A stretch of DNA of 64,000 nucleotides from Candidatus Levyibacteriota bacterium (GCA_963722305.1 CAVRKE010000001.1:501549-565548); one strand, 5' to 3'. Counted from the stretch's first letter, positions 35,739 to 61,263 are shown. Translations and numbers: made by a program. Notes: generated from the sequence alone by a model not told the origin.

Positions 35739-35739
35739 T

Positions 35740-37844: not shown

Positions 37845-37908
37845 AATCCCTTTCCGTTCGGTTTGACAATAAACCGCCAACACAGTAAAATCCCCACATT
37901 ACTAAATT

Positions 37909-42185: not shown

Positions 42186-42263
42186 AGCAATCTAATTGTT
42201 GTATATTACGAATGTAATTGCAAGCATATCTCGAGCATAATCCATGCTTGAGTTTTATTCTTT

Positions 42264-43400: not shown

Positions 43401-43494
43401 CTGTTGGAGAAAGATAAAAAATTATTAGAGTTTGTAAAGATGGGTGGACGTGAGGGAGCAAAAAAAGATTTCCTATCTTTACTTAAAAAAGCAG

Positions 43495-47507: not shown

Positions 47508-47771
47508 TATGGTTTACCTGTCAAATTTGCCTCTTGATACATGCTGCGCTTTCCTTCGATTTCACTCAGGACTATAGTGCGCCCAGTCCTAAAGGATTTC
47601 GTTTCACTCAATATCGCGAACTATCTATAGACTATAGATATTTTGGGTCTTGATGCATGTTGCTTCGCTCAATACTTTCGCTCGGCCCAGTATCGCGTGG
47701 TAATTCTAAAATTGCCACTTGACAATTATGTTACACTTTGTTACTTTATCGTTGATTAATTATCATATTGA

Positions 47772-47789
47772 TGACTATATGTATAGTCA
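47772..47789. promoter_or_regulatory. perfect 8-2-8 palindrome TGACTATA-TG-TATAGTCA, 7 nt upstream of the HTH gene start
   Basis: Inverted repeat centred at 47780/47781. Likely operator for the adjacent HTH protein. Confidence 0.5.
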
Positions 47790-47796
47790 CAAGGTT

Positions 47797-48006
47797 ATGA
47801 ATAATCAAACCCTATCAATCAATAACCTACCCGATCTCCTGACAGTTAGGGAAGTGGCCCAAATCCTGAGAGTCTCCCCTCTCACCATCAAACGCTGGGG
47901 CAAAAGAGGAAAGCTCCCGGCCATAAGGATTAATTCCCGAGGAGATCGAAGGTACAAAAAGGAAGCCGTCCTCTGGCTTCTCGGTATTCAGGCAAAAGAA
48001 GAGTAA
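47797..48006 (+). CDS. excisionase/MerR-type HTH DNA-binding protein (HTH_17-like), 69 aa
   Basis: LTVREVAQILRVSPLTIKRWGKRGKLPAIRI. Start set at the Met following the palindrome and an AAGG spacer. Confidence 0.6.
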   Translation: MNNQTLSINNLPDLLTVREVAQILRVSPLTIKRWGKRGKLPAIRINSRGDRRYKKEAVLWLLGIQAKEE

Positions 48007-48131
48007 AAGTTGCTCGCTAACGCTTGCGCCAATTTCTAATTTCTAATTCTTGATTTCTAAAGAAAACTCAATGCCTAATTACTAATTAGCTCTGAAGTAT
48101 AATTCTGAAGACAGACATCACCCTCTATTAT

Positions 48132-48641
48132 TTACTTCCCTGTGGGAACAACCGGAGCATTGAATGTCGGAGCAGCAGTCGGAACGGATGTAGGAGCCGG
48201 CGCACTGGCGCCAAGATTCACCGGCGCCACTTCAATAATTTTATTAATACTTTCCCGGTAGAGAATGGCCTTTTTCGCTTGGGTATAAATTAAAACCTTA
48301 TCACCATTTTGCGCATTGGCAAAAAACGGCTGGTCGCTCAATTTGGTAATATCCGAAACCGTGGCAATAGTCGGCTGCTCATTGGTCGGCAAAAGCATCA
48401 ATTTTCCAACTTCGGCCACCACCTGTTTTGCTTCGGCGTTTGTCGAAGCAGCCGGATTTTGCAATAAATTTTCCGCTTGCTTATATTGGTGATAAAAATA
48501 GTAAGACGGCAAAATCGCAATTACCAACAAAATTACAAGCACAATAATCCATAGCGATTTATTGCCTCTGAGGTTACTCAGTATTTTTTCTTGATATTCG
48601 CGAAGCTTCTGGACAGAAATTTTCACTACAGTTATTATCAT
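48132..48641 (-). CDS. hypothetical membrane-anchored protein
   Basis: N-terminal transmembrane helix (LWIIVLVILLVIAILP), extracytoplasmic domain, Ala/Pro/Thr-rich tail. Confidence 0.45.
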   Translation of the reverse strand: MIITVVKISVQKLREYQEKILSNLRGNKSLWIIVLVILLVIAILPSYYFYHQYKQAENLLQNPAASTNAEAKQVVAEVGKLMLLPTNEQPTIATVSDITKLSDQPFFANAQNGDKVLIYTQAKKAILYRESINKIIEVAPVNLGASAPAPTSVPTAAPTFNAPVVPTGK

Positions 48642-48720
48642 AAAGAAAATTCCGGAAGTTTGTCAATCCCCGTCTTAAAAACATTGAACCAAATTTGAAT
48701 TTGTTGTAAAGTAAAGATGG

Positions 48721-51531
48721 ATGAAGAAAAAAATAACCTTTGGCCTGCTCTTATTTTTTTTGTCTGTCAGTTTATTTTGGAATTTACCCGAGGTTAAAGC
48801 AGCCGGTTTTACCAGCGCCTATCTAAGGCTGAATAACCAAACTCCAAGCTCGGCTCTTGCGGGCACTGTTTGTGCCCAACCTTCTTCACCGGGTGCCGGC
48901 AGCGAAAGTAAAATCAGCCTTTCTTTTCCCGATGATTTTACAGTTTCGGGAAACACCAGCAACTGGACTACTAATGTTACCAATCTTCCTTCCGGTTCCA
49001 CACCCTGGCCATCAATCGGCAACCCCGCCGTCAGTATTTCTGGCCAGTCTGTCACATTCTCAAGCGGCGATTTAACCGCCGGCACTATTTACTGCTTTAA
49101 TTTTAACGGCGCTTCCTCGACCACCGGCGCTGTCGGCAATGATAAGACCGGTGCTCTAACAAGCAAAAATTCTTCGGATGTTATTATTGACCAGTCTGCT
49201 TATGCTGTCTCTATCGTTTCCAGTAACCAAATTGGAATTTCGGCCACTGTCTCGCCCGCGGCCTCCGACCTGCCGATCTCGATTGAATCAACTACTGTCG
49301 GCAACAATTTTCCGCAAAACACCATTTTGGACTATAAAATTACCTACGGTTCATTAACGGTCGGACCTTTCCCCTTAACTATTCAGGCCGAGTGGTCGCA
49401 AGGAACAATTGATGGTAGCCCTACGCCCTCAGTTGACCTTTTAAATTACGTCATCGGCAGTGCTTCGAATGCTTATGACGCAGCTCCGGCCGTAGTTGAT
49501 ACTACCAACCGAACTATCACCTGGACCATTAATTCTTTTCCCGGCAATACTGTTGGCCAGACGGTTACTTTTGAGCTGGAAACCAATGATTCTTATACCG
49601 GCAGCGAAGTTGTCAGTTTTAATGTGGCGGCCAGAAGCATGTCGGAGACAACGATTACTCCCGACCAGACAGTTAGCCAAACCTATCTTTACAGCACAGG
49701 GATTGAGCCAACCCCCACTCCCGCCCCCCCAACGGCCACGCCTACTCCCGGTACAAGTAGCAGCACCAGCACTATTACGCCAACCACCACTCCCACTGTC
49801 GCTTCCTCGCCCAGCCTGGCTTTTTCGGCGATTTCAATTCAGTCTCTATCGCAGTCCCAGGCCCAAATCGACGTTTCCACCACCAACAATGCAACTATCA
49901 CCGTCCAATATGGCACTGGCATCAATGCCCTTTCACAAAGTATTACTACTTCTTTGCCGACCAGCGAAGCTTTGCTAACCCTCCCAAACCTCACAGCCGA
50001 TACCAATTATTATTACCGCGTCACTGCCAAGGATGCTTTTGGCAACGTTATTAAGTCCGACATCTTTACTTTTAAAACTGCCGTTATCTCCCAAGCTACG
50101 CTGGCTGACCTGCAATCACTGATTGTCACCAGCAACAACAACATTTTACTTAACCCACAGACCGAAAAAATCACCACCGGTAATACCGTTTACTCGGTGG
50201 TTATTCCGCAGTTAAGCATTTTTGAAATTCATTTTTCGCTGACAAAATACGTGCCGATAAAAAATATCCAGGTAATCATCGAGAACAAACACGTTTTAGG
50301 CGCCAACACCTTTACTCCGCAGACGGCTGCTTCTAATTTTGTCGATTTGGTAGAAACCCAACCGGGGGTTTTCACCGGAAGGCTGTTAAGTCAACAAACT
50401 CCGGGAGTCTACGAGCTGTATGCCAAAATAGTCGACTACAACGGCAATATTACACTACAAAAAATAACGGACATCGTGGTTGTGCCGGAATTTAAGGTGC
50501 TTGAAAAAGGCACCAATAACCCCATCGAAGCTGCCAGAATACTGCTTTATCTGTATAACCCGACGACCAGAATTTACGAGGTTATTTCTCCGCAAATCCT
50601 GCCTATTAATAACCCTTTGTTTTCCCAGCCTAACGGAGTCGTCCCCATTGTTTTGCCCAAAGGGCAATACAAGGCGGATATTTCAGCCATTAATTACCAG
50701 TCCCAAACTGTGACGTTTGCAGTCGGGGCCACTTCTGGAAACTATCCGACTGTCTACCTGCAAAATCAACCATTCAGTCTGACTAATTATGTCAATTTCT
50801 TTCTTACCACGCTTTCCGATTACGTAATATCAAGCCAACAAACTTTAAGCCAGTTTTCTGCTTCAAGCCGCCTATTTGCCTTTTTGGAAGGCTTAACTTT
50901 ACTCGGCTTTGTCTTTTTAGCTTTTCTCTCCTTTTCGGCCAGGACGCACATTTCCCTACCCTATATTCCTTACTTTTTCTTCCATAAACTCAAGCAGCTA
51001 TTGTTTAAAGAAAATTCGCTGACCATTGGCAAAGTTTACGACGAGGTCACTCAAGCTCCGGTTTCAAAAGCACTGGTGTATATTATTGATGCGAAAAAGA
51101 ACAGCCTGATAGCGCATCTTCGAACCAACCGGCTGGGCGAATTTTACTGCCGAAAATTCGCAGCTGTCGACAAAATAAAGATTACCGTCGTCAAAAAAGG
51201 TTTTATCGCTAAGGCCCCGCTTGAATATAGCCAAAAAAGCTTGAGTGTTATGCCGATTAGCATCGCTTTGGAGAAAGATCTTACTTATCGAAAATCGGTG
51301 ATTGAGCTTTTGCTTTTGGCTATTGAGAACATTTTTGGTGCTTTTATGGAATTTACTCTGGTTCTGACAATTATTCTGGAGCTGTATTTTATCCCACCCT
51401 TAGGAATTCTCAAAGTGTCTCCTTTCCTGGCATTATCGATTTTTAACGTTGTTCTTTTAATTCTTTACCTCTACAAACCACGCAGTTTGATGTTCAAAAA
51501 TCCTCTGATAGAACAAGATCTTGCTGCTTAG
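48721..51531 (+). CDS. large secreted surface protein (936 aa): signal peptide, FN3-like and carboxypeptidase-regulatory-like domains, Thr/Pro linker, C-terminal membrane anchors
   Basis: Signal peptide MKKKITFGLLLFFLSVSLFWNLPEVKA. TPTPAPPTATPTPGTSSSTSTITPTTTPT linker. YYYRVTAKDAFGN (FN3-like). C-terminal hydrophobic helices. Confidence 0.6.
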   Translation: MKKKITFGLLLFFLSVSLFWNLPEVKAAGFTSAYLRLNNQTPSSALAGTVCAQPSSPGAGSESKISLSFPDDFTVSGNTSNWTTNVTNLPSGSTPWPSIGNPAVSISGQSVTFSSGDLTAGTIYCFNFNGASSTTGAVGNDKTGALTSKNSSDVIIDQSAYAVSIVSSNQIGISATVSPAASDLPISIESTTVGNNFPQNTILDYKITYGSLTVGPFPLTIQAEWSQGTIDGSPTPSVDLLNYVIGSASNAYDAAPAVVDTTNRTITWTINSFPGNTVGQTVTFELETNDSYTGSEVVSFNVAARSMSETTITPDQTVSQTYLYSTGIEPTPTPAPPTATPTPGTSSSTSTITPTTTPTVASSPSLAFSAISIQSLSQSQAQIDVSTTNNATITVQYGTGINALSQSITTSLPTSEALLTLPNLTADTNYYYRVTAKDAFGNVIKSDIFTFKTAVISQATLADLQSLIVTSNNNILLNPQTEKITTGNTVYSVVIPQLSIFEIHFSLTKYVPIKNIQVIIENKHVLGANTFTPQTAASNFVDLVETQPGVFTGRLLSQQTPGVYELYAKIVDYNGNITLQKITDIVVVPEFKVLEKGTNNPIEAARILLYLYNPTTRIYEVISPQILPINNPLFSQPNGVVPIVLPKGQYKADISAINYQSQTVTFAVGATSGNYPTVYLQNQPFSLTNYVNFFLTTLSDYVISSQQTLSQFSASSRLFAFLEGLTLLGFVFLAFLSFSARTHISLPYIPYFFFHKLKQLLFKENSLTIGKVYDEVTQAPVSKALVYIIDAKKNSLIAHLRTNRLGEFYCRKFAAVDKIKITVVKKGFIAKAPLEYSQKSLSVMPISIALEKDLTYRKSVIELLLLAIENIFGAFMEFTLVLTIILELYFIPPLGILKVSPFLALSIFNVVLLILYLYKPRSLMFKNPLIEQDLAA

Positions 51532-51622
51532 AAATAACCTAAACACTCGCCGCTTCAACCAGTGGCTATTTTACTCCCTTGCTTCCGGCTTAACTCAATT
51601 TTTAAACAACCGCCTTAGGCCT

Positions 51623-54600
51623 TTATTGAGTCGGTGTTATGGTTGGAGTTGAAGATTCAACCTGATTTAGAATTGATTGGAACGCCGCCGACTGGGTCGC
51701 TTGCGGTTCGGGTGTGGGCACTACCGGCTCCAGTCCCGCAGTTTTGGCATCCTGGACTGAAAGCGCCACCCAGGAAAAGTTAATATCTTCGGGTGCGGGT
51801 TTATTCAGCCGAATTGTAAATCCCTGGGTAGTTCTATCGGTAATCACATAAGAAAGATTACCGTTAAGGATGGCATCTTCCAAAGCTTTCTGGGCCACCT
51901 GGTCATTTATTTTGTCAAGGGCAATACTGGCAGTGACAACCGGTGTGTCGGCATACTCGTTGTCAAAAGTCACCGAAACAGTATCCTCTCCCTGCTTAAT
52001 CACCGCAAATCCGGCCGTATCGCTGTTGAAAGTCGGAGTTGAATTAAATCTGACGTTACCCTTAAACACCACGTCGTTCATAAAGTAACTAAAGCCGGAA
52101 ACGAGGAAATTATTGGTCGTCAGACTATCAAGAACATTCAAAGCGCCCTGGATAAGGCCGTTACCCGCAACATTTAAGTCGGCCGAAATAGTGGCCAAAC
52201 CGTTAACGTTCAAATCGGAAAGGTTGAGGGTTGAGGGAAGGGTTGTTGTCGCCGATGGCGTGGCTGTTGCCAATTCTCCGCTTTGAGTGGCATCGGAAAG
52301 AACCGCTACGCTATTAGATAGTGCTGAAATTTGGTTGGTCAGTATTTCCAAACCCTCAATATGGTCGGCCCTGATGGTTTTGGCAGTAATTAAGTCGGCG
52401 ACAATTTCCGGGCTGATTACCTCGCCGGCCGCCACTGTTCCGGTGAAAACTTCCGAAGAATTAAACGCTGCCGAACCGGCGTCCTTAAGGCTTTGCAGGT
52501 ATACCAAAGTATTTTGGTCACCGCTGGAAATTTGGTTCATGTAGGAATCAAGGCCGGTATCCCCATAGATATCGGCAAACCCCGCACTGGTCGAAGCCAC
52601 AAAGTTTTCGTCCGCCATTGCCAGCTCGACACTTTCGCCGTTATAGCTGGTTAAGTTAACAAAGACCGTGATAGTTCCGCATTGGGTGGTTGACAAACTG
52701 CCTGCCCCTTGGGCCGGACAATCGGAAACTTCGGTTGGGTCGGTCGGGTCAAAATCCTCAATAGCAGTTCCCAACACTCTGCCGGCCACCGTGGCTTTCA
52801 TCGCGTAACCGGGAATTGAAGACGATGTCAGGTAATCACCGGAATGGATTGGCCCGTTTTCGGTGGAAACCAGCACGGGCACGCGTCCCACAAGGGCGAT
52901 GGGATAAGAATCCGGTGTGTAAGCACCCGCTACGAATCCCGGGTCTGTTGAAACCACTCCCATGATGTTACTTTGGTATTGCATAGTTGACTGAATCACA
53001 TTTTGTGCATTAAATTGGTCGCCGACCACCACTTCTCCCGGATTTAAAGTTTGGGTGGAGGTGTAATTTTCCGCTAAATCCGCCCCGCCCGAGTTCCACG
53101 CCCCGCCTGCGGCTGTGTAAGCCTGTCCGTCGGCGGCAAACCTAAAGGCATTCATTCCTTCACTGGTTAAAGTCAAAATATTCGGGTCTGTGGTATTTGC
53201 CAGTCTCCAGTACTGCAAAGTTGGCGTCTGTATCTGCCTATAATAATCAACTGAACCTCCGCTATCTATTCCTGACCAAACTCTCTCTTTCTCATAAGGC
53301 ATATTTGGCATTGTTCCAGTAAGGGTAAACTTAAACTGCGCCCAGGTGTCGCCGGCATTTGGATTAATCAATCCACCGGCTTTTTCGACATCATTCCAGT
53401 TGGTGGCCGTCATGGCGGCCAAACTTGAACCGGTTCTTGATTGGACTCCGATTGCCCCCTGCCCGACATTTTTCCAGTCGAGCGAAGTATTGGCAGTAAG
53501 GTTATTGGAATTTATTGGTTCAGTCACATACGTCCCCTGTAAATTCCAGCCGGCATCAATGATCATTGTATTGGAACTGCCTCCTACAATGACTACAAAT
53601 TTTCCATCCGGTCTTTGAAAAACATTTGTGCCCGCAGCTAAATTGCTAGGCGAAGGTAACGTCGGGCCTGCCCAAGTTCCTCCTACAACCTGTACAGAAG
53701 GGTCCACAATTGTTGTCGAGGTTGCCCCGCCGTTTGCCCACAGTATTTTTCCATCCGGCAAAGGAATTGTAAATGCGCCCGCTCCGGCATTGGCAGACAA
53801 AACTTCACCGAGCGCGGCGGTAAACGTACCAAGTCTTGCATCATAAAGATAAATCGTAGTCGCGGCTGTTCCTCTGGTTTGCAGCCAGTTGCCGTTGGAA
53901 ATTTGCACAGTGGTTGCGTTTGCCCCGTATGCAGCAGTGGTAGCAGGGCCAACAACAAAAGAGTTGCTTGATTCTTCATAGATATCGGTTACCGCACTGG
54001 TCCCTAAAAAGACAAGGTATTTTCCGTCAGGCCTTTTAATGCTGTAGGCTCCAGCGGTGACCGTTGATGTAGTGGCCGGACCGGCTGTAAATGAATTTAA
54101 GAACGGGTCGTAAATGTTGGTATTGGCTGTTGCACCTCCCAAAATTATCAGAAATCTTCCATCAGAGCGCAAAATAGCATGAGCGCCTGCGCCAATTGCG
54201 GCTGTTACGCTAGGTCCGGCGAAAAAAATATTTCTGACCGGATCATAAATATCTGTAAGCTGAGAGGCGCCTATAAACAACATAAACTGCCCGTTGGGTA
54301 AAGGTATCGAGAATGAACCGGTATTCGGATTGCTCGCCCCAACCGTTGTCGGACCGACAGTGAACAAACCGGTAGTCGAATCATACATTCTGGTTGCGTT
54401 TGAATTACCAGCTAAGATAATCAAAAACTTACCGTTTGGCAACTGTAGAGTGTGGGACCCTGTTCCAGCAGTGCCGCCCAAGTCCGCCGAGGCAGATGCA
54501 ACAATAATATCGGCATTAGAACTTGGCACGCTGCCATTTTCAAACGTTGCCAAAGTAACGGAATCGGAATCGCCAGTAACTGTTCCGTTAAAAACCGCGC

Positions 54601-57600
54601 TTTGGGTGGCGGCGTTTCTATCTTCGGTTGAATCACTGGCCAGTACTCCACCGTAGCCGGCAATTGGATTCTGGATTTTGAAATCATAAAGCGTCGGTTG
54701 GGTAATTTGGCGCACGTACTCGGTTGAACCCTCTGACGCCCACATGTTGCTTGGCACTGCCGTTCCTACCACTTGGTTATAAGGCGGGGCAATCGGCGAG
54801 TTGAATTGAATTTGAACCTTGACTTGAGTCGCACCCGGCATAGTTTGAATCAAATCGCCGTTGTTTTGAATTAAGTTGTAACTCACACTGCCAAGATTCC
54901 CGTTAACAGCCGTTTTGACATAAACCTCGACTCCGGCCGAAGGCGACGCCGAAACCGCAGGCGTCGAATCCCAAAAAATCGCCGAATAGGTGGAAATTTT
55001 TGTGCTGGTAATATCTTCCGATGTCCAAACACCACCAGTCCTCCAACCTACGTCATAAACCGTCGAGTTTGTACCAAGTGCACCGTTAAGAATTAAATAA
55101 CTTCCGTTATCTCTCTGGAATACGCCGCCCCCTACCCCAACCGAATTAGGTAAATTATTGGTAACCTGCGTCAGACTGCCGGTTGTACCGGAGGTCGGGT
55201 CGTAAAGATATGTCGCTTTTGAACCGTTGCCAACCGTAATTATCCATTTGTTGTTGGCCATTTGAAAAGCGGTTGAACCGGTGCCGACTTTATCACTAAA
55301 TTGCGGTCCGGCTGTAAATGTGTTAGTGGCAAAATTATAAATATCCGTATTGATATTATTGTTGGCATCAATCACCATAAACCTGCCATCAGGCAGTTGC
55401 AAAACATTGGCGCCGGTACCCGCAGCCGACTGGAGCGTCGGTCCGGCCGAAAAAGTACTGGTTACAGGATCATAAATATTGGTGGTAGTGGTGTTACCGC
55501 CCAGGATTACTATCCACTTTCCGTCCTGACGCTGGAAAACCGCCGAACCGGAAGCGACAATATTACCTGCTCCCGATAAAGCCGGCCCCTGGGCCATAGT
55601 GTTGGCAACCGGGTCATACAATGCGCTATATTGTGAACCGCCGAGTAAAACCAGGAACTTGCCGTCGGAATGCGGAATAACGCGGGAACCACCGCCGGCG
55701 ATATACTGGACGCCGCCAATTACTGGCAGATTCGGGCCAACCGCGATTGAACCAAAATTATTACTTCCGGCCGGGTCATAAATATCGCTTCTGTTGGCAT
55801 AAGTGATTACGAATTTCCCATCCTGTCTTTGGAAAACCGCCGAGCCGGAACCAATGGTTGCAGTTAAGTTAGGTCCGACGGTAAAAGTATTGGTCGGCAC
55901 GCTATACGTGTAAATTCTGGCGCTGGCAGCCGATACTCCGCCTAAAAATGCTACTACTCCGTTTTGCTGCCGCATAATTGCCGAACCCGAAGAAATTGGG
56001 ATTACCGTTGAAGGTGCGCCGGTGGAAGTTGGATTGATAGTGCTTGCAGTTAAAGAATTATCAACCTGCATTGAAATATCATTATTTGCAATTGAAACGT
56101 TAGTTGAACAGTATCCACTGCCGCTGCAGAAAGTTCCTTGGGTAAAGTCTGAAGTGGTGTTTTTAGTGATATCATCGTTGGTTGAATTTCCGGCAATTCT
56201 AGCAGAACCGACAACGTCAAGATTGTAACCGGAATTAGCTAAAGAACCGCCAATCCCGACACTGCCGTTTTGGTTAACGACAAATCTGGTTGCCCCGGAA
56301 GCAGAAGCGGCAATCAAAGCGCCGGTTCCCGAATTGTCGACGACCAGACCAGCAAAAGAAGTTGCCCCGGAAATGGAGGCGATAGCAATTGTGCCATTAT
56401 TAAGTCTGACATCAAAGTTTGCCAGAGGAGTAGTTCCGTCAGTGTTAATCCCCACCAAACCTGAGCCGCCCGGATTAATCGCAAAGTTTTGGTTAGTTGC
56501 GGTGCTGATTGTATCAATACCGGTTCCGGTAAAGCTAATTCCCGAACCATTGCCGGCCATCACTAAATTCCCGTTTTGCTGAACGGTGAATAAAGGCACG
56601 CCGGAGGCTGAAGCCGTAAAAATATCTCCTGTTCCCAACTGGTTTATTGTTAATCCCGCAAAAGAACTATTTCCGGAGAAAGAAGCTACTCCCAAAGTTC
56701 CGCTGGAACCCCGAACATCCAAAGTGGCAAGCGGCGCGGTGGTGCCAATACCAATCATGGCGCTGGCGGTAGCGTTGTTGACACCTAAAATACTACCTAA
56801 GATTAAACTGTTGTTTTGTGTTACATAAGCATTGGCTCCAATGGCTGTGGCGTTAATCAGATTGCCTAAACCAACATCGGCACCATACCCCAAAAGCGTA
56901 TTTAAGCCTCCAACGTCAATTGTCTGTCCTGCCTGATCACCCACGGCAGTATTGTTGGTACCAAGAGTCGTACTTTGACCCGCCTGATAGCCGAGGAAGG
57001 AGTTTTGAAAACCGGCGGTGTTGGAAAAACCTGCTCTGCCACCGAGGAAGGAATTGTTATATCCGGCGTTATTGTTATAACCTGCATAAAACCCGAGGAA
57101 GGAATTGTTATACCCGCTGGTATTGAGCCAACCTGCCATATAGCCGAGGAAGGAGTTGTCGTATCCGGTCAGGTTGGATAAGCCCGCCGTTTCGCCAAAG
57201 AAGGAGTTTTGGTATCCGGTGGTGTTATTTTGACCTGCGTAAGATCCGAGGAAGGAATTTTGGTATCCGGTCAGGTTGGATAAGCCTGCATAAAATCCAA
57301 CGAAGGAATTGTTATTCCCGGCGGTATTAGCACCACCTGCAGAATCTCCAACGAAGGAATTATTGTATCCGGTGGTATTAGAATTACCTGCATAAGCTCC
57401 GAGGAAGGAATTGTAGGATCCGCTGGTATTAACACTACCTGCATTCATACCAAGGAAGGAGTTATTAGATCCGGTAGTATTATATTCACCTGCGCCATTT
57501 CCAAAGAAGGAGTTTAGAGATCCGGTGGTGTTGCTTTGGCCTGCCTGATAGCCGATGAACGAGTTAGAGCCACCAGTGGTGTTGGATTGACCTGCGTTTA

Positions 57601-60600
57601 GGCCGATAAAGGTATTGGATTTGCCCGATCCTCCGTTTCTAAAATCTATTGCGGTTGTGCCGTTAGAGTTTAAAATTGTGGCAATCGGACTAACTGTATT
57701 TACTTGCCTGAGGATAACGTTATCAATTGTTCCGTACCAATTCATCGTTGGGGTAAAAGTAAGGTCTCCCGCGCCGAAAGAAGTAATCAGTTGGGTGTCG
57801 GTTTTACTCATGTTGACGTCTTGACCGACGGCTGTACCGTTTGTTCCTCCAACACCCGGAGTTAAGGAACCGGAAGAAGTACCGGTAGTTGTAAAAGTGT
57901 AAGTCAGCTCATAAGTACCGGCAGCAATAAGCGTATCAAAATCAGTCGTGTTATTAGTTAAAGTAAATACCCCTGTTCCCGGAGCATCTTTAGCCGCAAC
58001 ACCACTTGAATTAACATTAACATTCCACGGGGGCTGTCCGCCTGATGTTGTCCAGTGGCCGGTGCCCGAAAATTGACTATCGTTAGCAACGTTCTTAATC
58101 TTATTCGCTTGTACATAACTAGCGACGTCTCCGCCAACAACTCCCTCAATCGCCAGTTTTGCTGTTGGCGTATTTGTTCCAATCCCGACATTGCCGTTAT
58201 TTTGTATTACAAACTTCGTCCAACCACTGGCGGAGGCGGTAAATAAATCCCCAACGCCGTCATTGTTGGCCACCAAAGAAGCAAAGGATGTTGCTCCGGA
58301 AATTGAAGCAATGGCGATTGTCCCAACGTTAGGCCTAACATCAAAATTGGCCAGAGGAGTAGTTCCGTCGGTGTTGATGCCAAAAAGACCGGTGCCGCCC
58401 GGATTAATCGCGAAGTTTTGGTTACTGGCAGTGGTAATAGTATTTAATCCTGAAGTTCCCGAGAAGTTAAGGTCTGCTCCGTTCCCCGACAATGTGATTC
58501 CGGTTGTTCCTGCCAAAGTCAAGTTGCCGGACGAATCAATGTAATTTGTGGCGCCAAAAAACTGCAGGTTGCCGGTTGAACCGGAATTAAGAGTTAGAGT
58601 GTTTCCACCGGTGTTTGTAATTGACGGGCTAGAACCGGTAAAAGCCAGATTTCCGCCATTACTTAAGGAGGCAAAAGTGCCAGCCCCAAGGCCCGTTACA
58701 GACCACTGAGCATCATTAAGTGCCAGATCACCGCTTGAAGCATTGCCGATGGTGATAGTTCCGGCATTTGAACCCGTACCAATGTTGGTGGTATTACTGC
58801 CCGAAGTATTAATACTGGTTGCACCCAAAACGGTTAAACCACCCAGAGTTCCCACCGAAGTTAAGGAAGAGCCGGTCACTCCCGAGCCTAAAGTAGTGGT
58901 AGACAAAACGGAAGTGCCTCCGATTTGGTATGCTCCCGAAGCGTTAACATTACCGGCATTGGAAATTGTGAACCTCGGCCAACCGGAAGCGGAGGCAGTA
59001 AATAAGTCCCCGACGCCATTGTTATTGGCCACTAAAGTTGCGAATGAAGTTGTTCCGGAGATGGAGGCCACCGCTAAAGTGCCGGAACTGCCCCGAACAT
59101 CCAGGGTTACGAAGGGAGCAGTTGTGCCGATACCAATATAGCCGGTATTATCCCGGATAGTCATGGCAGTTGCCCAGGTGTTCAGTCCTGACTTGTAGCC
59201 AAAGTTTAAAGTGCCGTTCCCCGGCTCAATGGTAGAGCTGTTTGTTCCTCCCAACACTAAAGTGGCAGAGATGGAAGCGCTACCGGTCGGAGCACCGATA
59301 TTGACTACTGTGGCAGCTCCGGCAAGATTAAGTGTGCCGGTTAATCCGGTATTAAATACAGCCAGAGATCCGGAAGTTTGGTTAGTAGCAATGGTTGTAC
59401 CATTAAGCGTGATTGTTCCCGAAGCACCGCCCATAGTTAGAGTTGTCGTTGCGCCACCATAGGTGATTGATGTCGGCGTCGCCAATTCCGTAACCGTAGC
59501 CAGACTGGAATTAATGTTTGAGGCGTTAAGATTGATGACGCTTCCTGCCGCCGAGTTTAATGGAGCAAGAGTAATATTGCCGCTGGTATTCCCGCCAATG
59601 GTTAAGAGCTGGTTATTGGTCGTTTGAATAGCCCCTGTTCCATAGATACTAAAAGTTAAATTACCGGAGATAGAAGCATTACCACCCAACTCATTAGTGC
59701 CACTGGTATAAGGCATCACAACCAGGTTGCCGCCGACTGTGGCAACCGGCGTCCCGCCAGCGAGGTTTAAAACCGCAAAGGCAGCCGAACTGGTTGCTTG
59801 TGAACCGATTAGAAAATCCGCAGTTGAGTTAATCGGCGTAATATATCCTCCTCCAACACCGCTAACCAAATTCCAGTAATTCGCTCCACCGCAACCGCTA
59901 CAAGACATAACCGTTAAGGCTCCGCCCTTGGTAATATGCCAGGAGTTACCTGTTCCCTCAATATCGTAAGAATAGCCGGAGGTTGTGCCTGATAAATTAA
60001 GCTGCAGACCTACCTGGTTAAACGAGCCGTTCGCTCCCGAAAGGTTTAAGGCCAAACCAACTACCCCCCCGGTTTGCGAAGTTGAGTTGGTAAGATTGGC
60101 CAAAGTACCGGTTGAACCCGTATCGGCATAGATTAAACCCGTGCCTGAATTTGGTAGTTTAACCGTAACACCATTTGCTACCTGCAAGGTGCCGGAGGTC
60201 GAGGCGTTTCCGGAGGTGTCCTGAACGGTTAGGCCGGCCACCTGTTGGGCATTAAAGGCAAACGGGACTGCGGCCATCTGAATTCTGGGAGTCATTTCGG
60301 AATCACTCCCTACTTTGACTCCCAGATAGAGTCCATCCCAATTGAAATTAAAATTGGCAGGAAATGCAACATTAGAGCCCAAAGCCACTCGGAAAATTCC
60401 GTCAACCGTGGTTACCGAATCTGTTTCTTGCCAGAGGTAACCCGAAGCCGGACTACCCGCGGTTGGGTGGTTATAGAAAGAGAAAGTCACCGAGTAGGTG
60501 CTATTGGTGACATTCGTTCCGGCGGCGTTAACCAGTTTTCCCTGAAAATTGATGGTGCGGTTAATGCCCGGCGCAGCCCACACCGGCTTTGTGAAAAATA

Positions 60601-60676
60601 GCGAAAAATTGGCAAGAAAAAAGACTATTGCCAAAACGGTCAAAAAGTGTCTAAAATTAGAGTGTGGTTTAAACAT
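51623..60676 (-). CDS. giant secreted surface protein (3017 aa) with multiple internal repeat families
   Basis: Signal peptide. Repeated ~60-aa modules (GT[LI][AG][IV]AS[IF]SG.[TS]SFA.L...G.GD[LI]FTASASG). ~17 tandem 15-aa Asn/Gly-rich repeats (NNSFLGY.AG.SNT.GY). ~20 propeller-like blades (GS.AFQR.DGKF...GG). The long continuous ORF makes the many antisense ORFs spurious. Confidence 0.85.
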   Translation of the reverse strand: MFKPHSNFRHFLTVLAIVFFLANFSLFFTKPVWAAPGINRTINFQGKLVNAAGTNVTNSTYSVTFSFYNHPTAGSPASGYLWQETDSVTTVDGIFRVALGSNVAFPANFNFNWDGLYLGVKVGSDSEMTPRIQMAAVPFAFNAQQVAGLTVQDTSGNASTSGTLQVANGVTVKLPNSGTGLIYADTGSTGTLANLTNSTSQTGGVVGLALNLSGANGSFNQVGLQLNLSGTTSGYSYDIEGTGNSWHITKGGALTVMSCSGCGGANYWNLVSGVGGGYITPINSTADFLIGSQATSSAAFAVLNLAGGTPVATVGGNLVVMPYTSGTNELGGNASISGNLTFSIYGTGAIQTTNNQLLTIGGNTSGNITLAPLNSAAGSVINLNASNINSSLATVTELATPTSITYGGATTTLTMGGASGTITLNGTTIATNQTSGSLAVFNTGLTGTLNLAGAATVVNIGAPTGSASISATLVLGGTNSSTIEPGNGTLNFGYKSGLNTWATAMTIRDNTGYIGIGTTAPFVTLDVRGSSGTLAVASISGTTSFATLVANNNGVGDLFTASASGWPRFTISNAGNVNASGAYQIGGTSVLSTTTLGSGVTGSSLTSVGTLGGLTVLGATSINTSGSNTTNIGTGSNAGTITIGNASSGDLALNDAQWSVTGLGAGTFASLSNGGNLAFTGSSPSITNTGGNTLTLNSGSTGNLQFFGATNYIDSSGNLTLAGTTGITLSGNGADLNFSGTSGLNTITTASNQNFAINPGGTGLFGINTDGTTPLANFDVRPNVGTIAIASISGATSFASLVANNDGVGDLFTASASGWTKFVIQNNGNVGIGTNTPTAKLAIEGVVGGDVASYVQANKIKNVANDSQFSGTGHWTTSGGQPPWNVNVNSSGVAAKDAPGTGVFTLTNNTTDFDTLIAAGTYELTYTFTTTGTSSGSLTPGVGGTNGTAVGQDVNMSKTDTQLITSFGAGDLTFTPTMNWYGTIDNVILRQVNTVSPIATILNSNGTTAIDFRNGGSGKSNTFIGLNAGQSNTTGGSNSFIGYQAGQSNTTGSLNSFFGNGAGEYNTTGSNNSFLGMNAGSVNTSGSYNSFLGAYAGNSNTTGYNNSFVGDSAGGANTAGNNNSFVGFYAGLSNLTGYQNSFLGSYAGQNNTTGYQNSFFGETAGLSNLTGYDNSFLGYMAGWLNTSGYNNSFLGFYAGYNNNAGYNNSFLGGRAGFSNTAGFQNSFLGYQAGQSTTLGTNNTAVGDQAGQTIDVGGLNTLLGYGADVGLGNLINATAIGANAYVTQNNSLILGSILGVNNATASAMIGIGTTAPLATLDVRGSSGTLGVASFSGNSSFAGLTINQLGTGDIFTASASGVPLFTVQQNGNLVMAGNGSGISFTGTGIDTISTATNQNFAINPGGSGLVGINTDGTTPLANFDVRLNNGTIAIASISGATSFAGLVVDNSGTGALIAASASGATRFVVNQNGSVGIGGSLANSGYNLDVVGSARIAGNSTNDDITKNTTSDFTQGTFCSGSGYCSTNVSIANNDISMQVDNSLTASTINPTSTGAPSTVIPISSGSAIMRQQNGVVAFLGGVSAASARIYTYSVPTNTFTVGPNLTATIGSGSAVFQRQDGKFVITYANRSDIYDPAGSNNFGSIAVGPNLPVIGGVQYIAGGGSRVIPHSDGKFLVLLGGSQYSALYDPVANTMAQGPALSGAGNIVASGSAVFQRQDGKWIVILGGNTTTTNIYDPVTSTFSAGPTLQSAAGTGANVLQLPDGRFMVIDANNNINTDIYNFATNTFTAGPQFSDKVGTGSTAFQMANNKWIITVGNGSKATYLYDPTSGTTGSLTQVTNNLPNSVGVGGGVFQRDNGSYLILNGALGTNSTVYDVGWRTGGVWTSEDITSTKISTYSAIFWDSTPAVSASPSAGVEVYVKTAVNGNLGSVSYNLIQNNGDLIQTMPGATQVKVQIQFNSPIAPPYNQVVGTAVPSNMWASEGSTEYVRQITQPTLYDFKIQNPIAGYGGVLASDSTEDRNAATQSAVFNGTVTGDSDSVTLATFENGSVPSSNADIIVASASADLGGTAGTGSHTLQLPNGKFLIILAGNSNATRMYDSTTGLFTVGPTTVGASNPNTGSFSIPLPNGQFMLFIGASQLTDIYDPVRNIFFAGPSVTAAIGAGAHAILRSDGRFLIILGGATANTNIYDPFLNSFTAGPATTSTVTAGAYSIKRPDGKYLVFLGTSAVTDIYEESSNSFVVGPATTAAYGANATTVQISNGNWLQTRGTAATTIYLYDARLGTFTAALGEVLSANAGAGAFTIPLPDGKILWANGGATSTTIVDPSVQVVGGTWAGPTLPSPSNLAAGTNVFQRPDGKFVVIVGGSSNTMIIDAGWNLQGTYVTEPINSNNLTANTSLDWKNVGQGAIGVQSRTGSSLAAMTATNWNDVEKAGGLINPNAGDTWAQFKFTLTGTMPNMPYEKERVWSGIDSGGSVDYYRQIQTPTLQYWRLANTTDPNILTLTSEGMNAFRFAADGQAYTAAGGAWNSGGADLAENYTSTQTLNPGEVVVGDQFNAQNVIQSTMQYQSNIMGVVSTDPGFVAGAYTPDSYPIALVGRVPVLVSTENGPIHSGDYLTSSSIPGYAMKATVAGRVLGTAIEDFDPTDPTEVSDCPAQGAGSLSTTQCGTITVFVNLTSYNGESVELAMADENFVASTSAGFADIYGDTGLDSYMNQISSGDQNTLVYLQSLKDAGSAAFNSSEVFTGTVAAGEVISPEIVADLITAKTIRADHIEGLEILTNQISALSNSVAVLSDATQSGELATATPSATTTLPSTLNLSDLNVNGLATISADLNVAGNGLIQGALNVLDSLTTNNFLVSGFSYFMNDVVFKGNVRFNSTPTFNSDTAGFAVIKQGEDTVSVTFDNEYADTPVVTASIALDKINDQVAQKALEDAILNGNLSYVITDRTTQGFTIRLNKPAPEDINFSWVALSVQDAKTAGLEPVVPTPEPQATQSAAFQSILNQVESSTPTITPTQ
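56985..57645. repeat. 45-bp imperfect tandem repeat array (~14 units) inside the giant gene
   Basis: Units resemble GAGGAAGGAATTGTTATATCCGG.GGTATT....ACCTGC.TAA..CC on the + strand. They encode the 15-aa NNSFLG..AG..NT.GY repeat on the minus strand. Confidence 0.75.
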
Positions 60677-60707
60677 TAATTAATACTACCTACGGTAGTA
60701 TTAATTA
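60677..60707. promoter_or_regulatory. 31-bp perfect palindrome (14-bp arms, 3-bp spacer) immediately 5' of the giant gene start codon
   Basis: TAATTAATACTACC-TAC-GGTAGTATTAATTA. The giant gene ATG (minus strand) is at 60676, directly adjacent. Confidence 0.55.
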
Positions 60708-60802
60708 CAGCAATTATAAGGCTGGAGGTCAAATCCTAGAAAGACTTGCATATTATTATTTATAATTGTATACTATTGCATAGCTAATTTTTCACGATAA
60801 TT

Positions 60803-61084
60803 ATGGAAAACCTAATGAATGTTAAGCAAGTTGCGTTTATTCTTAAAGTCCATCCCCTAACGGTTCGCCGTTACATAAAAAGCGGAAAATTAAAAGCAGT
60901 CAGGGCCGGCGGCAATGTCCGGATTAAGGAATCAAGTCTGACGGAATTTAACAAAGACTTTACCACTGCTTCCTCACAAAGACAAATTATTAAAAGCAGA
61001 CTCCGCCCGGCAAAGATTTTTACGCTTGACGACCCGTTATTTAGGCTCAGAGGCCGTGGAGCAAGCCTGAACTTAAGCCCCTGA
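60803..61084 (+). CDS. excisionase/MerR-type HTH DNA-binding protein, paralog of 47797..48006
   Basis: VKQVAFILKVHPLTVRRYIKSGKLKAVRAGGNVRI. Confidence 0.6.
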   Translation: MENLMNVKQVAFILKVHPLTVRRYIKSGKLKAVRAGGNVRIKESSLTEFNKDFTTASSQRQIIKSRLRPAKIFTLDDPLFRLRGRGASLNLSP

Positions 61085-61263
61085 GATTTAGAATTATGAA
61101 GCTAGAATTATGAATCAAGGAAAAATACAATCATTTACAGATTTACATGAATGGCAAGAAGCTCAAGAATTAACCATGATCTTTCAGAAAATGACTAATT
61201 CTTTGAGAAATGCTAATTAAATCATTCACTGAAAATTGTAAATTGAAAAATGAAAATTGAATT

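What the first reader, a model, noticed from the sequence alone, without database searches (positions are those of the whole stretch)
47772..61084. Giant surface-protein locus bracketed by two excisionase-type HTH paralogs and start-proximal palindromes
Between two small HTH_17-like genes (47797-48006 and 60803-61084) lie:
- a membrane-anchored protein;
- a 936-aa secreted FN3/Thr-Pro-linker protein;
- a 3017-aa signal-peptide protein built from several repeat families (60-aa modules, 45-bp DNA tandem repeats, ~20 propeller-like blades, a C-terminal region reminiscent of tail-fibre/adhesin processing domains).

The first HTH gene is preceded by the perfect palindrome TGACTATA-TG-TATAGTCA. The giant gene's start codon abuts a 31-bp perfect palindrome (60677-60707) that could sequester the initiation region or bind a regulator. 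A further >770-aa secreted protein follows to the window end. This looks like a regulated attachment/host-interaction module typical of episymbiotic ultra-small bacteria. Its regulation by dedicated HTH proteins and the palindromes is untested.
Basis: partly seen in the sequence, partly recalled or inferred. Interest (0 to 1): 0.6.

Follow-up and report, generated by a model that had tools for sequence, protein, structure and literature searches.

The report
Conserved surface-fibre locus with HTH–PIN regulator pair

Summary
The genes are intact. Both small genes are HTH_17 proteins. The "31-bp perfect palindrome" is 14-bp arms with a 3-nt loop, and the repeat period is 51 bp, not 45.

HTH2 (60803-61084) is the first gene of a conserved operon. 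It is followed by a VapC-fold PIN protein (61264-61683) that probably lacks two catalytic acids, and then by a secreted-protein gene.

HTH2 and the PIN gene are adjacent in all 24 related loci that contain the HTH2 region. In 20 of them (mostly Candidatus Levyibacteriota MAGs) the pair lies divergent to a large secreted protein sharing the giant's N-terminal domain.

The control region has a fixed layout: start-abutting palindrome, TTGAC box, exactly 12 bp, then four 10-bp direct repeats. The long palindrome is kept in 12 of the 24 sequences examined, with changes on both arms.

HTH1 (47797-48006) and its 8-bp-arm palindrome are not part of this. HTH1 has no orthologue in the related loci. An identical protein occurs elsewhere in another context, without the palindrome.

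The giant protein is a modular fibre with two Kelch-like propellers, a phi29 gp12-like domain and an H-type-lectin-like end. Regulation of the giant gene by HTH2-PIN is inferred, not shown.

The parts
51623..60676 (-). Giant gene, 3017 aa, intact. It encodes a secreted modular fibre/adhesin.
   Evidence: Single ORF. N-terminal signal-peptide-like sequence ending VWA|AP. No whole-protein Pfam, PDB or NCBIfam match except a weak Kelch hit. Relatives are CPR proteins.
60197..60574 (-). Conserved N-terminal domain of the giant protein (aa 35-160). It is the hallmark shared by the large genes next to HTH2-PIN in relatives.
   Evidence: phmmer E 1e-24 to 1e-72 against the divergent large ORF in 20 related loci. 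No Pfam match.
56903..57616 (-). About 14 tandem 17-aa repeats (NSFxGxxAGxxNTTGxx), equal to a 51-bp DNA period.
   Evidence: Tandem Repeats Finder gives period 51/102/153 at 56991-57544. Repeat listing.
55037..56029 (-). First Kelch-like beta-propeller, about 7 blades.
   Evidence: Seven units about 47 aa apart. Kelch_6 scores 27.3 bits against a cutoff of 25.3 when the segment is scanned alone.
53549..54499 (-). Second Kelch-like beta-propeller, about 7 blades.
   Evidence: Six repeat units found by the motif search and one more placed by eye in a 96-aa gap. No Pfam hit above cutoff.
52577..53119 (-). phi29 pre-neck-appendage (gp12)-like beta domain carrying GGADLAENY (a D-x-x-E motif). Candidate autoprocessing/trimerisation domain.
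   Evidence: AlphaFold pLDDT 86-97 over this domain. Foldseek against viral models: 'Preneck appendage protein', E 3e-11. PHROG tail fibre, E 0.002. Several homologues carry PF11962. D, A and E of the motif are at least 90% conserved in 48 sequences.
51707..52039 (-). H-type-lectin-like domain near the C-terminus.
   Evidence: Foldseek against PDB: Helix pomatia agglutinin, SLL-2, discoidin II, pyocin fibre and Pam1 tailspike tips (E about 1e-2, probability 1.0). Pfam H_lectin scores 18.2 bits, below the cutoff of 24. One homologue is named an H-type lectin protein and another carries PF09458.
60677..60707 (.). Inverted repeat with 14-bp arms and a 3-nt loop, abutting the giant gene's ATG. Candidate operator, or 5' hairpin.
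   Evidence: The only inverted repeat with arms of 12 bp or more in the window, against 0.03 expected. Present at the same place in 11 related loci, with arms of 11-15 bp. 7 of 16 pairs change on both sides; 0 of 500 shuffles reach the observed values.
60704..60732 (-). Predicted giant-gene promoter: -35 TTGACC (60727-60732), 17-nt spacer, -10-like TGTAAT (60704-60709, the outer part of the palindrome arm).
   Evidence: TTGAC lies 39-41 nt from the palindrome centre, with a 17-nt spacer to a nnTAAT-type hexamer, in all 12 sequences. This is a consensus match only; no transcription start site has been mapped.
60745..60782 (+). Four 10-bp-phased direct repeats (CTTGCATA/ATTATTTA/ATTGTATA/ATTGCATA). 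They contain the predicted HTH2 promoter and are candidate head-to-tail binding sites for HTH2.
   Evidence: The only such array in the window. It is present in 21 of 25 sequences exactly 12 bp from the TTGAC box, while its distance to the HTH2 ATG varies from -1 to 173 nt.
60803..61084 (+). HTH2: a truncated-MerR/excisionase-type HTH_17 protein with a conserved C-terminal tail (FT.DDPLFRL.GRGASL). Antitoxin-like partner of the PIN protein.
   Evidence: HTH_17 E 4e-11. TIGR01764 scores 38 bits against a cutoff of 28.8. 24 orthologues have an almost invariant recognition region and a conserved tail.
61109..61219 (+). Decayed remnant of a 23S_rRNA_IVP (four-helix-bundle) gene inserted between HTH2 and the PIN gene.
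   Evidence: Contains stop codons. A 94%-identical PIN gene in L027 is preceded by an intact 119-aa PF05635 gene. blastn aligns L027 313-841 with window 61151-61679.
61264..61683 (+). VapC-fold PIN-domain protein, probably catalytically degenerate.
   Evidence: AlphaFold pLDDT 91. Foldseek: VapC20 and VapC26, E 2e-8, TM 0.77-0.83. 8 of 26 orthologues hit Pfam PIN. In the VapC26 alignment, the first and third catalytic acid positions align with A and Q in the window protein.
61680..64000 (+). Secreted protein of more than 772 aa whose ATG overlaps the PIN stop codon (ATGA). It runs off the window.
   Evidence: Homologues follow the PIN gene in 15 related loci.
48132..48641 (-). 169-aa membrane-anchored protein. 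In more distant relatives its homologue lies directly downstream of the large gene.
   Evidence: Homologues lie just after the large gene on the same strand in L020, L023, L024 and L025, and after the FN3-protein gene in L003.
48721..51531 (+). 936-aa secreted FN3/CarboxypepD_reg-like protein, convergent with the giant gene.
   Evidence: Weak Pfam hits to Pur_ac_phosph_N and CarbopepD_reg_2. Orthologues occupy the same position in L002 and L003.
47797..48006 (+). HTH1: a BldC/MerR-like HTH_17 protein. It is not part of the conserved locus.
   Evidence: Pfam and NCBIfam hits. No orthologue in any of the 26 related loci. An identical protein lies in another context in L028.
47772..47789 (.). 8+2+8 inverted repeat upstream of HTH1. 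It is real but not conserved, and of a size expected by chance.
   Evidence: In L028 it is replaced within an otherwise 88%-identical promoter region. 19 inverted repeats with arms of 8 bp or more occur in the window, against about 7 expected.

Best explanation
This is a vertically inherited cell-surface fibre locus of Candidatus Levyibacteriota (CPR/Patescibacteria).

**The giant protein.** The giant gene encodes a secreted, modular, phage-tail-fibre-like adhesin. Its parts, in order, are:
- a conserved N-terminal domain;
- repeat and stalk modules;
- two Kelch-like propellers;
- a phi29 gp12-like domain with a D-x-x-E motif;
- coiled coil;
- an H-type-lectin-like end.

**The regulator pair.** The giant gene is transcribed divergently from an operon that begins with a VapBC-like pair. 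HTH2 is a truncated-MerR/HTH_17 protein with an antitoxin-like C-terminal tail. The PIN protein has the VapC fold but probably lacks two of the four catalytic acids. The operon continues into secreted-protein genes.

**The control region.** The 126-bp intergenic region is one integrated control region with back-to-back promoters.

**Inferred mechanism.**
- HTH2, a BldC/Xis-like winged helix, occupies the four 10-bp direct repeats that contain its own promoter. These lie 12 bp from the -35 box of the giant promoter.
- The 31-bp inverted repeat, which runs from the predicted -10 to the ATG of the giant gene, is a DNA-level operator. It may be bound by an HTH2-PIN complex or by another factor.
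- Together these would set expression of the fibre gene in step with the HTH2-PIN-surface-protein operon.

**What is shown and what is inferred.** Shown: gene content, folds, synteny, fixed spacing, and paired variation of the palindrome. Inferred: who binds what, and the direction of regulation. HTH1 and its palindrome are unrelated neighbours.
For: **Synteny**
- HTH2 and the PIN gene are adjacent in all 24 related loci that contain the HTH2 region.
- A large secreted protein with the giant's N-terminal domain lies divergent to them in 20 of the 24. PIN identity falls to 49% across these loci.
- Each of the 22 genome hits is in a different assembly, so the pair looks single-copy.
- Four further loci from metagenomes carry HTH2 and/or the N-terminal domain next to the palindrome.

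**Control region**
- TTGAC lies 39-41 nt from the palindrome centre with a 17-nt spacer.
- The gap between TTGAC and the first of the four repeats is exactly 12 bp in 21 of 25 sequences. The distance from the repeats to the HTH2 ATG varies from -1 to 173 nt.
- The palindrome has changes on both sides in 7 of 16 pairs and 91.7% of cells paired, with 0 of 500 shuffles reaching this. Slid controls give at most 58%.
- Neither the palindrome core nor the repeat array occurs elsewhere in the roughly 300 kb of related loci. The repeat array and the window's palindrome arm are likewise unique in the window.

**Proteins**
- The HTH2 recognition region is nearly invariant, as is the repeat motif.
- BldC, a similar small MerR-like protein, binds direct repeats head-to-tail (PMC5859096).
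- The PIN fold is well supported.
- A PIN-truncated-MerR class of toxin-antitoxin pairs has already been predicted (PMC2701414).
- The PIN stop codon overlaps the next gene's ATG in the window and six other loci.
- Proteins P0086 and P0107 join two HTH_17 domains, through a TM helix, to the same fibre C-terminal module.
Against: - There is no binding, transcription or start-site evidence. The promoter assignments are consensus matches only.
- The repeat unit (ATTGYATA) and the palindrome half-site (TTAATTAATAYTAC) are not alike, so one protein may not bind both.
- The long palindrome is absent from about half of the loci. The more distant ones have only short, different inverted repeats. Yet HTH2's recognition region does not change.
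- Three loci (L017, L019, L026) keep HTH2-PIN without the large gene next to it.
- Conserved synteny within one lineage can persist without a functional link.
- The loss of catalytic residues rests on a weak HMM alignment (E 0.08), not on a structural superposition.
Confidence: 0.55

Rival explanations
1. HTH2-PIN is an ordinary type II (VapBC-like, PIN-MerR class) toxin-antitoxin module. It regulates only itself. Its position next to the giant gene reflects shared descent or a locus-stabilising role, not regulation of the fibre gene.
For: - The order is antitoxin-like gene first, toxin-like gene second, on the same strand, 8-40 bp apart in most loci.
- The PIN protein has the VapC fold.
- HTH2 has a conserved C-terminal tail, as toxin-binding antitoxins do.
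- The PIN-truncated-MerR class has been described (PMC2701414).
- Three loci keep the pair without the large gene.
Against: - The pair looks single-copy and syntenic across 22 different assemblies, with none of the patchy or mobile distribution typical of toxin-antitoxin modules.
- The first and third catalytic acid positions are not acidic in most members.
- The PIN stop overlaps the start of a secreted-protein gene.
- The repeat array keeps a fixed 12-bp distance to the giant promoter's -35 box rather than to the HTH2 start.
Confidence: 0.25
2. The palindrome acts as an RNA hairpin at the 5' end of the giant mRNA. It would control translation initiation or mRNA stability, independently of the HTH proteins.
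For: - It abuts or overlaps the ATG in all 12 sequences.
- The full RNA hairpin folds at -14.8 kcal/mol, z-score -3.7.
- Pairing is maintained by changes on both sides.
- The loops are C-GAA-G or C-GTA-G in most loci.
- An alternative -10-like hexamer (TATAAT in the window) just upstream would start the transcript at the base of the hairpin. I read this from the sequences.
Against: - The best-conserved promoter geometry (TTGAC, 17 nt, nnTAAT) places the -10 inside the 5' arm. The transcript would then hold only a 6-bp stem of -5.9 kcal/mol, z-score -1.0.
- Only 1 G-U pair is seen among 180 cells, although wobble pairs are tolerated in RNA.
- The loop is the reverse complement (TAC) in L008, L010, L096 and L107.
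- There is no Shine-Dalgarno sequence to sequester.
Confidence: 0.2
3. One reading: two excisionase-type HTH paralogs bracket the locus and jointly regulate it through their start-proximal palindromes.
For: Both are HTH_17 proteins and the only two in the window. Each is divergent to a neighbouring gene and has an inverted repeat near its start.
Against: - HTH1 has no orthologue in any related locus, including L003, L020 and L023, which cover the syntenic side.
- An identical HTH1 protein lies between a KAS-III-like gene and a DUF7790 gene on L028, without the palindrome.
- The two HTH proteins are only about 37% identical.
- An 8-bp-arm repeat is expected by chance.
Confidence: 0.04
4. The region is a prophage or mobile-element remnant: a tail-fibre gene flanked by excisionases.
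For: There are tail-fibre-like and gp12-like folds. The small proteins give excisionase-family hits. An IS1595 transposase and a Replic_Relax gene lie about 4-5 kb upstream of HTH1.
Against: - No integrase, capsid, portal or terminase genes were found in the locus or in relatives.
- The giant protein has a signal peptide.
- The ribosomal-protein genes rplJ-rplL lie near the locus in both the window and L004.
- The cluster was found in 22 different assemblies.
Confidence: 0.03

Closest known systems
VapBC-type type II toxin-antitoxin modules, specifically the predicted PIN-truncated-MerR class (Makarova, Wolf and Koonin 2009, PMC2701414)
   Same: - A small MerR-like/HTH_17 DNA-binding protein with an extra short conserved segment is followed on the same strand by a PIN protein of about 140 aa with the VapC fold.
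- A repeat-rich operator region overlaps the promoter of the pair.
   Different: - It looks single-copy and stays in the same place across a whole lineage.
- The catalytic acids are not conserved.
- The PIN gene overlaps the start of a downstream secreted-protein gene.
- The pair is always back-to-back with a large fibre gene.
- The conserved extra segment of HTH2 is C-terminal, whereas the 2009 description places it N-terminal.
BldC / lambda Xis-type small winged-helix proteins that bind direct repeats head-to-tail (Schumacher et al. 2018, PMC5859096)
   Same: HTH1 and HTH2 are small HTH_17/MerR-like proteins without a dimerisation helix. Both give NCBIfam HTH_BldC hits (E 5e-12 and 8e-7) that are below the curated cutoff. 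HTH2's promoter holds four AT-rich direct repeats with a 10-bp phase.
   Different: The repeat unit (ATTGYATA) is not the BldC consensus AATTnnnn(C). HTH2 has an added antitoxin-like tail and a PIN partner. Binding has not been tested.
Phage tail fibres and tailspikes with C-terminal autoprocessing domains (phi29 gp12 / Peptidase_G2, PF11962)
   Same: The architecture is a modular fibre. The beta domain matches pre-neck appendage proteins (E 3e-11). A conserved D-x-x-E motif is present. The lectin-like end resembles pyocin and tailspike receptor-binding tips.
   Different: - It is a chromosomal, signal-peptide-bearing bacterial protein of 3017 aa.
- PF11962 itself does not hit this protein.
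- The gp12-like domain is followed by coiled coil and a lectin-like domain, rather than being the extreme C-terminus.
- No cleavage has been shown.
Giant or very large surface proteins of CPR and other ultra-small or predatory bacteria (for example bioRxiv 10.1101/2023.11.21.568195)
   Same: A very large, secreted, repeat-rich protein in an ultra-small bacterium, presumed to mediate contact with other cells.
   Different: At 3017 aa it is far below the sizes treated in that preprint. The new element here is the conserved regulator pair and control region, not the size.

Membership tests
HTH_17 / excisionase-family DNA-binding proteins (PF12728, TIGR01764) | Sequence match to the family model above the curated cutoff | tested here: met
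   HTH1 scores 42.3 bits and HTH2 43.5 bits against a cutoff of 27. TIGR01764 scores 34.1 and 38.2 bits against a cutoff of 28.8.
HTH_17 / excisionase-family DNA-binding proteins (PF12728, TIGR01764) | Acts as a recombination directionality factor, next to an integrase or recombinase | tested here: not met
   No integrase or recombinase was found in the locus or in the related loci. The name describes the fold, not the role.
BldC family (NF033787) | Match above the curated cutoff of 77 bits | tested here: not met
   HTH1 scores 45.5 bits and HTH2 28.8 bits. They are similar to the family but not members.
BldC family (NF033787) | Binds tandem direct repeats head-to-tail | not testable with these tools
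   Four 10-bp-phased direct repeats exist at 60745-60782 and are conserved. Binding is untested.
VapC / PIN-domain toxin (PF01850) | PIN fold | tested here: met
   AlphaFold pLDDT 91. Foldseek top hits are VapC20 and VapC26, E 2e-8, TM 0.77-0.83.
VapC / PIN-domain toxin (PF01850) | Sequence match to Pfam PIN above the gathering score | tested here: not met
   The window protein gives no PIN hit. 8 of 26 orthologues hit at E of 6.5e-5 or weaker.
VapC / PIN-domain toxin (PF01850) | Four conserved acidic active-site residues | tested here: inconclusive
   In the alignment to VapC26 (E 0.08), the first Asp aligns with A9 and the third with Q105. The family columns at those positions are A/S/T/E and Q/K/H. 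Positions 2 and 4 are mostly acidic. No structural superposition was possible.
Type II toxin-antitoxin module (VapBC, PIN-MerR class) | Adjacent, co-oriented small DNA-binding gene and toxin gene | tested here: met
   The two are adjacent in all 24 related loci that contain the HTH2 region, usually 8-40 bp apart. In the window they are 179 bp apart because of an inserted gene remnant.
Type II toxin-antitoxin module (VapBC, PIN-MerR class) | Toxicity of the toxin and its neutralisation by the antitoxin | not testable with these tools
   Needs expression experiments.
Type II toxin-antitoxin module (VapBC, PIN-MerR class) | Patchy, mobile, often multi-copy distribution | tested here: not met
   There is one locus in each of 22 different assemblies, all in the same gene context.
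Peptidase_G2 / phi29 gp12 autoprocessing domain (PF11962) | Sequence match to PF11962 | tested here: not met
   No hit in the giant protein even when scanned in segments at E up to 1. Some homologues carry it.
Peptidase_G2 / phi29 gp12 autoprocessing domain (PF11962) | Fold similarity and a conserved Asp/Glu motif at the start of the domain | tested here: met
   Foldseek against viral models finds pre-neck appendage proteins at E 3e-11. D, A and E of ADLAE are at least 90% conserved. That these are the catalytic residues is from my memory of the phi29 gp12 work, not tested here.
Peptidase_S74 (endosialidase chaperone) C-terminal domain | Sequence or fold match to S74 | tested here: not met
   No PF13884 hit and no S74 structure among the Foldseek hits.
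H-type lectin domain (PF09458) | Sequence match above the cutoff | tested here: not met
   18.2 bits against a cutoff of 24, E 0.003.
H-type lectin domain (PF09458) | Fold match to solved H-type lectins | tested here: met
   Helix pomatia agglutinin, SLL-2, Helix aspersa agglutinin and discoidin II: probability 1.0, TM (target) 0.5-0.56, E about 1e-2. Local pLDDT is 84-97.
Kelch beta-propeller | Kelch motif match and blades with a period of about 47 aa | tested here: met
   Kelch_6 scores 27.3 bits against a cutoff of 25.3 in the first propeller segment. About 14 blade-like units are present. The fold was not modelled.

The most novel reading that the evidence does not exclude
A toxin-antitoxin-derived pair, a truncated-MerR HTH plus a catalytically dead VapC-fold PIN protein, has been domesticated across a CPR lineage as the dedicated switch of its host-attachment fibre locus. 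HTH2 would polymerise on four direct repeats. The PIN partner would bridge HTH2 onto the promoter palindrome, or recognise the conserved hairpin as nucleic-acid structure. This would couple fibre expression to a signal that destabilises the antitoxin-like protein.
Probability: 0.25. Interest if true: 0.7.

Novelty: new variant of a known kind. Interest (0 to 1): 0.5.

Why it matters
- CPR/Patescibacteria are thought to live attached to other cells. How they control their attachment structures is almost unknown, and few are cultivated.
- This locus offers a concrete, compact and conserved control region of about 110 bp, with two kinds of repeat in a fixed layout.
- It also offers two small soluble proteins that could be tested in vitro without growing the organism.
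- If the pair does control the fibre gene, it would be a clear case of a toxin-antitoxin-like module fixed as a lineage-wide regulator of a surface structure.
- The HTH_17-TM-fibre fusion proteins seen in other Microgenomates hint that the link between this DNA-binding domain and this class of fibre is wider.
- If the pair does not control the fibre gene, the result is still a cleaner annotation: a modular lectin-tipped fibre, one relevant palindrome, and one irrelevant HTH.

Tried and rejected
- **Whole giant protein as a database query.** It timed out, so I used C-terminal and N-terminal segments instead. The hit lists held only proteins under about 940 aa, mostly fragments, so no full-length relative was compared.
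- **Exact look-up of the giant protein.** Not on record.
- **PDB sequence search of the giant protein.** Nothing found at E up to 1.
- **Structure prediction of the PIN protein from locus-derived orthologues.** I redid it with database homologues.
- **Metagenome scan for the palindrome core (TAATATTAC, 3-5 nt, GTAATATTA).**
  - 116 of 120 hits were unrelated AT-rich inverted repeats.
  - Only 4 hits were true loci.
  - It therefore says nothing about whether the site is exclusive to this locus genome-wide.
- **Link between an Asp at PIN position 11 and presence of the palindrome.** I saw no pattern when comparing alignment A3 with the palindrome list.
- **Rfam.** Only four tRNAs in the window and nothing in the locus.
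- **PADLOC.** Only the generic mad1 HTH hit for both HTH proteins.
- **Terminator reading of the palindrome.** Rejected, because no T-run follows it on either strand.
- **Leaderless mRNA driven by a -10 in the 3' arm.** Rejected, because the distance to the ATG would vary from 2 to 7 nt between loci.

Full report
**1. Checking the observation**

Both small proteins match HTH_17 (42-44 bits against a cutoff of 27) and the NCBIfam excisionase domain. They are the only two such ORFs in the 64-kb window. They share only about 37% identity, so they belong to the same family but are not recent paralogs.

The inverted repeat at 47772-47789 is as described: 8-bp arms with a 2-nt spacer. The element at 60677-60707 has 14-bp perfect arms and a 3-nt loop, not a perfect 31-mer. 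In simulated sequence of the same composition, an inverted repeat with arms of 12 bp or more is expected 0.03 times, and one is found. Repeats with arms of 8 bp or more are expected about 7 times, and 19 are found. Only the giant-gene palindrome stands out statistically.

The tandem repeat period is 51 bp (17 aa, about 14 copies), not 45 bp. There are four modules of about 65 aa. I count about 14 propeller blades in two sets of seven, not about 20. The motif search found 13, and I placed the 14th by eye.

**2. The giant protein**

No Pfam, NCBIfam or PDB sequence match covers the protein. Scanned in segments, the first propeller passes the Kelch_6 cutoff, and the C-terminal part gives a sub-threshold H_lectin hit.

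An AlphaFold model of the last 538 residues, built on 48 sequences, has a mean pLDDT of 76, with two domains above 90.
- **Residues about 2530-2680.** This beta domain begins with GGADLAENY. It matches viral 'pre-neck appendage protein' models at E 3e-11 and, more weakly, phage capsid cement proteins in the PDB.
- **Residues about 2880-2990.** This domain matches H-type lectins and the tips of pyocin fibres and tailspikes.

The D, A and E of ADLAE are at least 90% conserved in the family alignment, and some homologues carry PF11962. No S74 signal was found.

The closest match is phi29 gp12, followed by coiled coil and a lectin-like end. Homologues come from Levyi-, Morani-, Pace- and Daviesbacteria and other Patescibacteria.

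**3. The 139-aa ORF and HTH2**

The ORF at 61264-61683 has no Pfam hit of its own. However, 8 of 26 orthologues hit PIN, JGI names many homologues 'predicted nucleic acid-binding protein', and its model (pLDDT 91) matches VapC20 and VapC26 at E 2e-8 with TM about 0.8.

In the alignment to VapC26, the first and third catalytic acids correspond to A9 and Q105. Across the family these columns hold A/S/T/E and Q/K/H. This suggests an inactive nuclease, but the alignment is weak (E 0.08).

HTH2 orthologues keep a nearly invariant HTH region and a conserved C-terminal tail, FT.DDPLFRL.GRGASL. The pair fits the predicted PIN-truncated-MerR class of toxin-antitoxin modules (PMC2701414).

The 179-bp gap between the two genes in the window holds a decayed 23S_rRNA_IVP gene. 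A 94%-identical relative has it intact.

**4. Comparative genomics**

N-terminal homologues of the giant protein led to three long contigs, L002-L004. Each has a divergent HTH_17 gene followed by a 139-145-aa gene. A genome scan with the PIN alignment returned 22 loci in 22 assemblies, mostly named Candidatus Levyibacteriota.
- HTH2 and the PIN gene are adjacent in all 24 related loci that contain the HTH2 region.
- In 20 of them, the ORF divergent to HTH2 is a large secreted protein with the giant's N-terminal domain. These ORFs range from 304 aa (the truncated copy in L004) to more than 1860 aa where they run off the locus. Many also carry its C-terminal module.
- L017, L019 and L026 lack the large gene, and L012 shows only a weak fragment.
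- A homologue of the downstream secreted protein follows the PIN gene in 15 loci. Its ATG overlaps the PIN stop codon in the window and six other loci.
- The 169-aa membrane protein is the immediate downstream neighbour of the large gene in four more distant loci.

The conserved unit is therefore: membrane protein, large fibre gene, control region, HTH2, PIN gene, secreted proteins.

**5. The control region**

In the window and 11 related loci, a perfect inverted repeat lies against or overlapping the large gene's ATG. Its arms are 11-15 bp and its loop is GAA, GTA or TAC.
- On a 12-sequence alignment, 7 of 16 pairs change on both sides and 91.7% of cells pair. None of 500 shuffles reaches these values, and slid controls drop to 58% or less.
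- Only one G-U pair is seen. In four loci the loop is the reverse complement of GTA. Both points fit DNA-level symmetry better than an RNA hairpin.
- A TTGAC box lies 39-41 nt from the palindrome centre. After a 17-nt spacer comes a nnTAAT-type hexamer, which is the outer end of the 5' arm. If this is the promoter, the palindrome covers the -10, the start site and the whole leader.
- On the other side, exactly 12 bp from TTGAC in 21 of 25 sequences, lie four 10-bp-phased direct repeats of (C/A)TTGYATA. These contain the predicted HTH2 promoter. Their distance to the HTH2 ATG varies from -1 to 173 nt.
- Neither the palindrome core nor the repeat array occurs elsewhere in the related loci. In the window, the repeat array and the palindrome arm are also unique.
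- More distant loci keep the repeats and TTGAC but have only short, different inverted repeats before the ATG.

Small MerR-like proteins of the BldC type bind direct repeats head-to-tail (PMC5859096). This makes the repeat array the more likely HTH2 site. The invariance of both the HTH2 recognition region and the repeat motif agrees with that.

**6. HTH1**

HTH1 has no orthologue in any of the 26 related loci available when the search was run. These include L003, L020 and L023, which cover the corresponding side of the locus.

The same 69-aa protein is encoded on a JGI contig, L028, between a KAS-III-like gene and a DUF7790 gene. The DNA there is 86% identical from about 100 bp upstream to the stop codon. 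The 18 bp of the palindrome are the least conserved stretch and are not palindromic there.

HTH1 and its palindrome are therefore lineage-specific neighbours, not part of the system.

**7. Interpretation**

The best-supported reading is a conserved fibre locus whose divergent control region is served by the HTH2-PIN pair. The fixed spacing, the synteny across species and the operon structure argue against a free-standing toxin-antitoxin cassette.

No experiment links HTH2 or the PIN protein to either DNA element, and the promoter positions are predictions. I put about 0.55 on regulation of the giant gene by this pair. I put about 0.25 on a self-contained toxin-antitoxin module that merely sits there. 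I put about 0.2 on the palindrome acting mainly as an RNA hairpin, which overlaps with either of the other two.

A domain fusion adds independent support. Proteins in Daviesbacteria and a relative carry two HTH_17 domains, a TM helix and the same gp12-like fibre module. This links the DNA-binding domain to this fibre class.

**8. Novelty**

Each component is of a known kind. The conserved combination and the two-motif control region appear not to have been described. My literature searches for this combination found nothing directly relevant, but they were limited. I rate it a new variant of a known kind, of moderate interest.

Noticed in passing
window 61109-61219; L027 23-382: A decayed remnant of a 23S_rRNA_IVP (four-helix-bundle) gene lies between HTH2 and the PIN gene. 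The same position in a close relative holds an intact 119-aa copy.
   Followed up: yes
window 36990-44385: A low-GC (about 0.33 at 42-44 kb) insertion lies between rplA (35695-36639) and rplJ-rplL (44610-45844). It carries a Replic_Relax gene (42264-43115) and an IS1595 transposase (43495-44385). It is probably a mobile island splitting the ribosomal protein cluster.
   Followed up: partly
proteins P0086 (929 aa, Candidatus Daviesbacteria) and P0107 (812 aa): These proteins have two N-terminal HTH_17 domains, a TM helix, and an extracellular fibre module with the same gp12-like 'AD(I/L)AE' domain and C-terminal domain as the giant protein. They look like membrane-tethered DNA-binding proteins fused to a fibre.
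   Followed up: partly
window 47570-47789: GACTATA occurs 12 times in the window against 4.2 expected. Four copies cluster upstream of HTH1, together with a second inverted repeat with 9-bp arms at 47622-47640. None of these is present in the L028 copy of the HTH1 promoter region shown.
   Followed up: partly
window 61680-61683; L009, L011, L016, L018, L021, L022: The PIN stop codon overlaps the ATG of the next secreted-protein gene (ATGA). This suggests translational coupling of a toxin-like gene to a surface-protein gene.
   Followed up: yes
L001 1-5219; L002 10001-18657; L003 10001-17147: The closest homologues of the giant gene are split into several ORFs on their contigs. This could be assembly indel errors, pseudogenes or phase variation. 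It was not examined.
   Followed up: no
L004 9621-12585: A GIY-YIG gene is inserted between HTH2 and the control region. The large gene is only 304 aa and is followed directly by rplJ-rplL. It looks like a natural truncation of the fibre gene that keeps the promoter and palindrome.
   Followed up: partly
L008, L010, L096, L107 (palindrome centres): The 3-nt loop is TAC, the reverse complement of the GTA seen in other loci, as if the centre of the palindrome had been flipped.
   Followed up: partly
window 44610-45452: The listed rplJ ORF is 280 aa, but the L10 domain occupies only residues 20-116. The L10 gene in L004 is 179 aa. This may be a C-terminal extension or a fused reading frame.
   Followed up: no
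L002 1889-7237; L003 5217-7417; L004 5203-7328: Runs of paralogous secreted proteins of about 350 aa follow the HTH2-PIN operon. Some have weak WxLIP_PGBD hits, and some share a domain with the window's 936-aa protein.
   Followed up: partly
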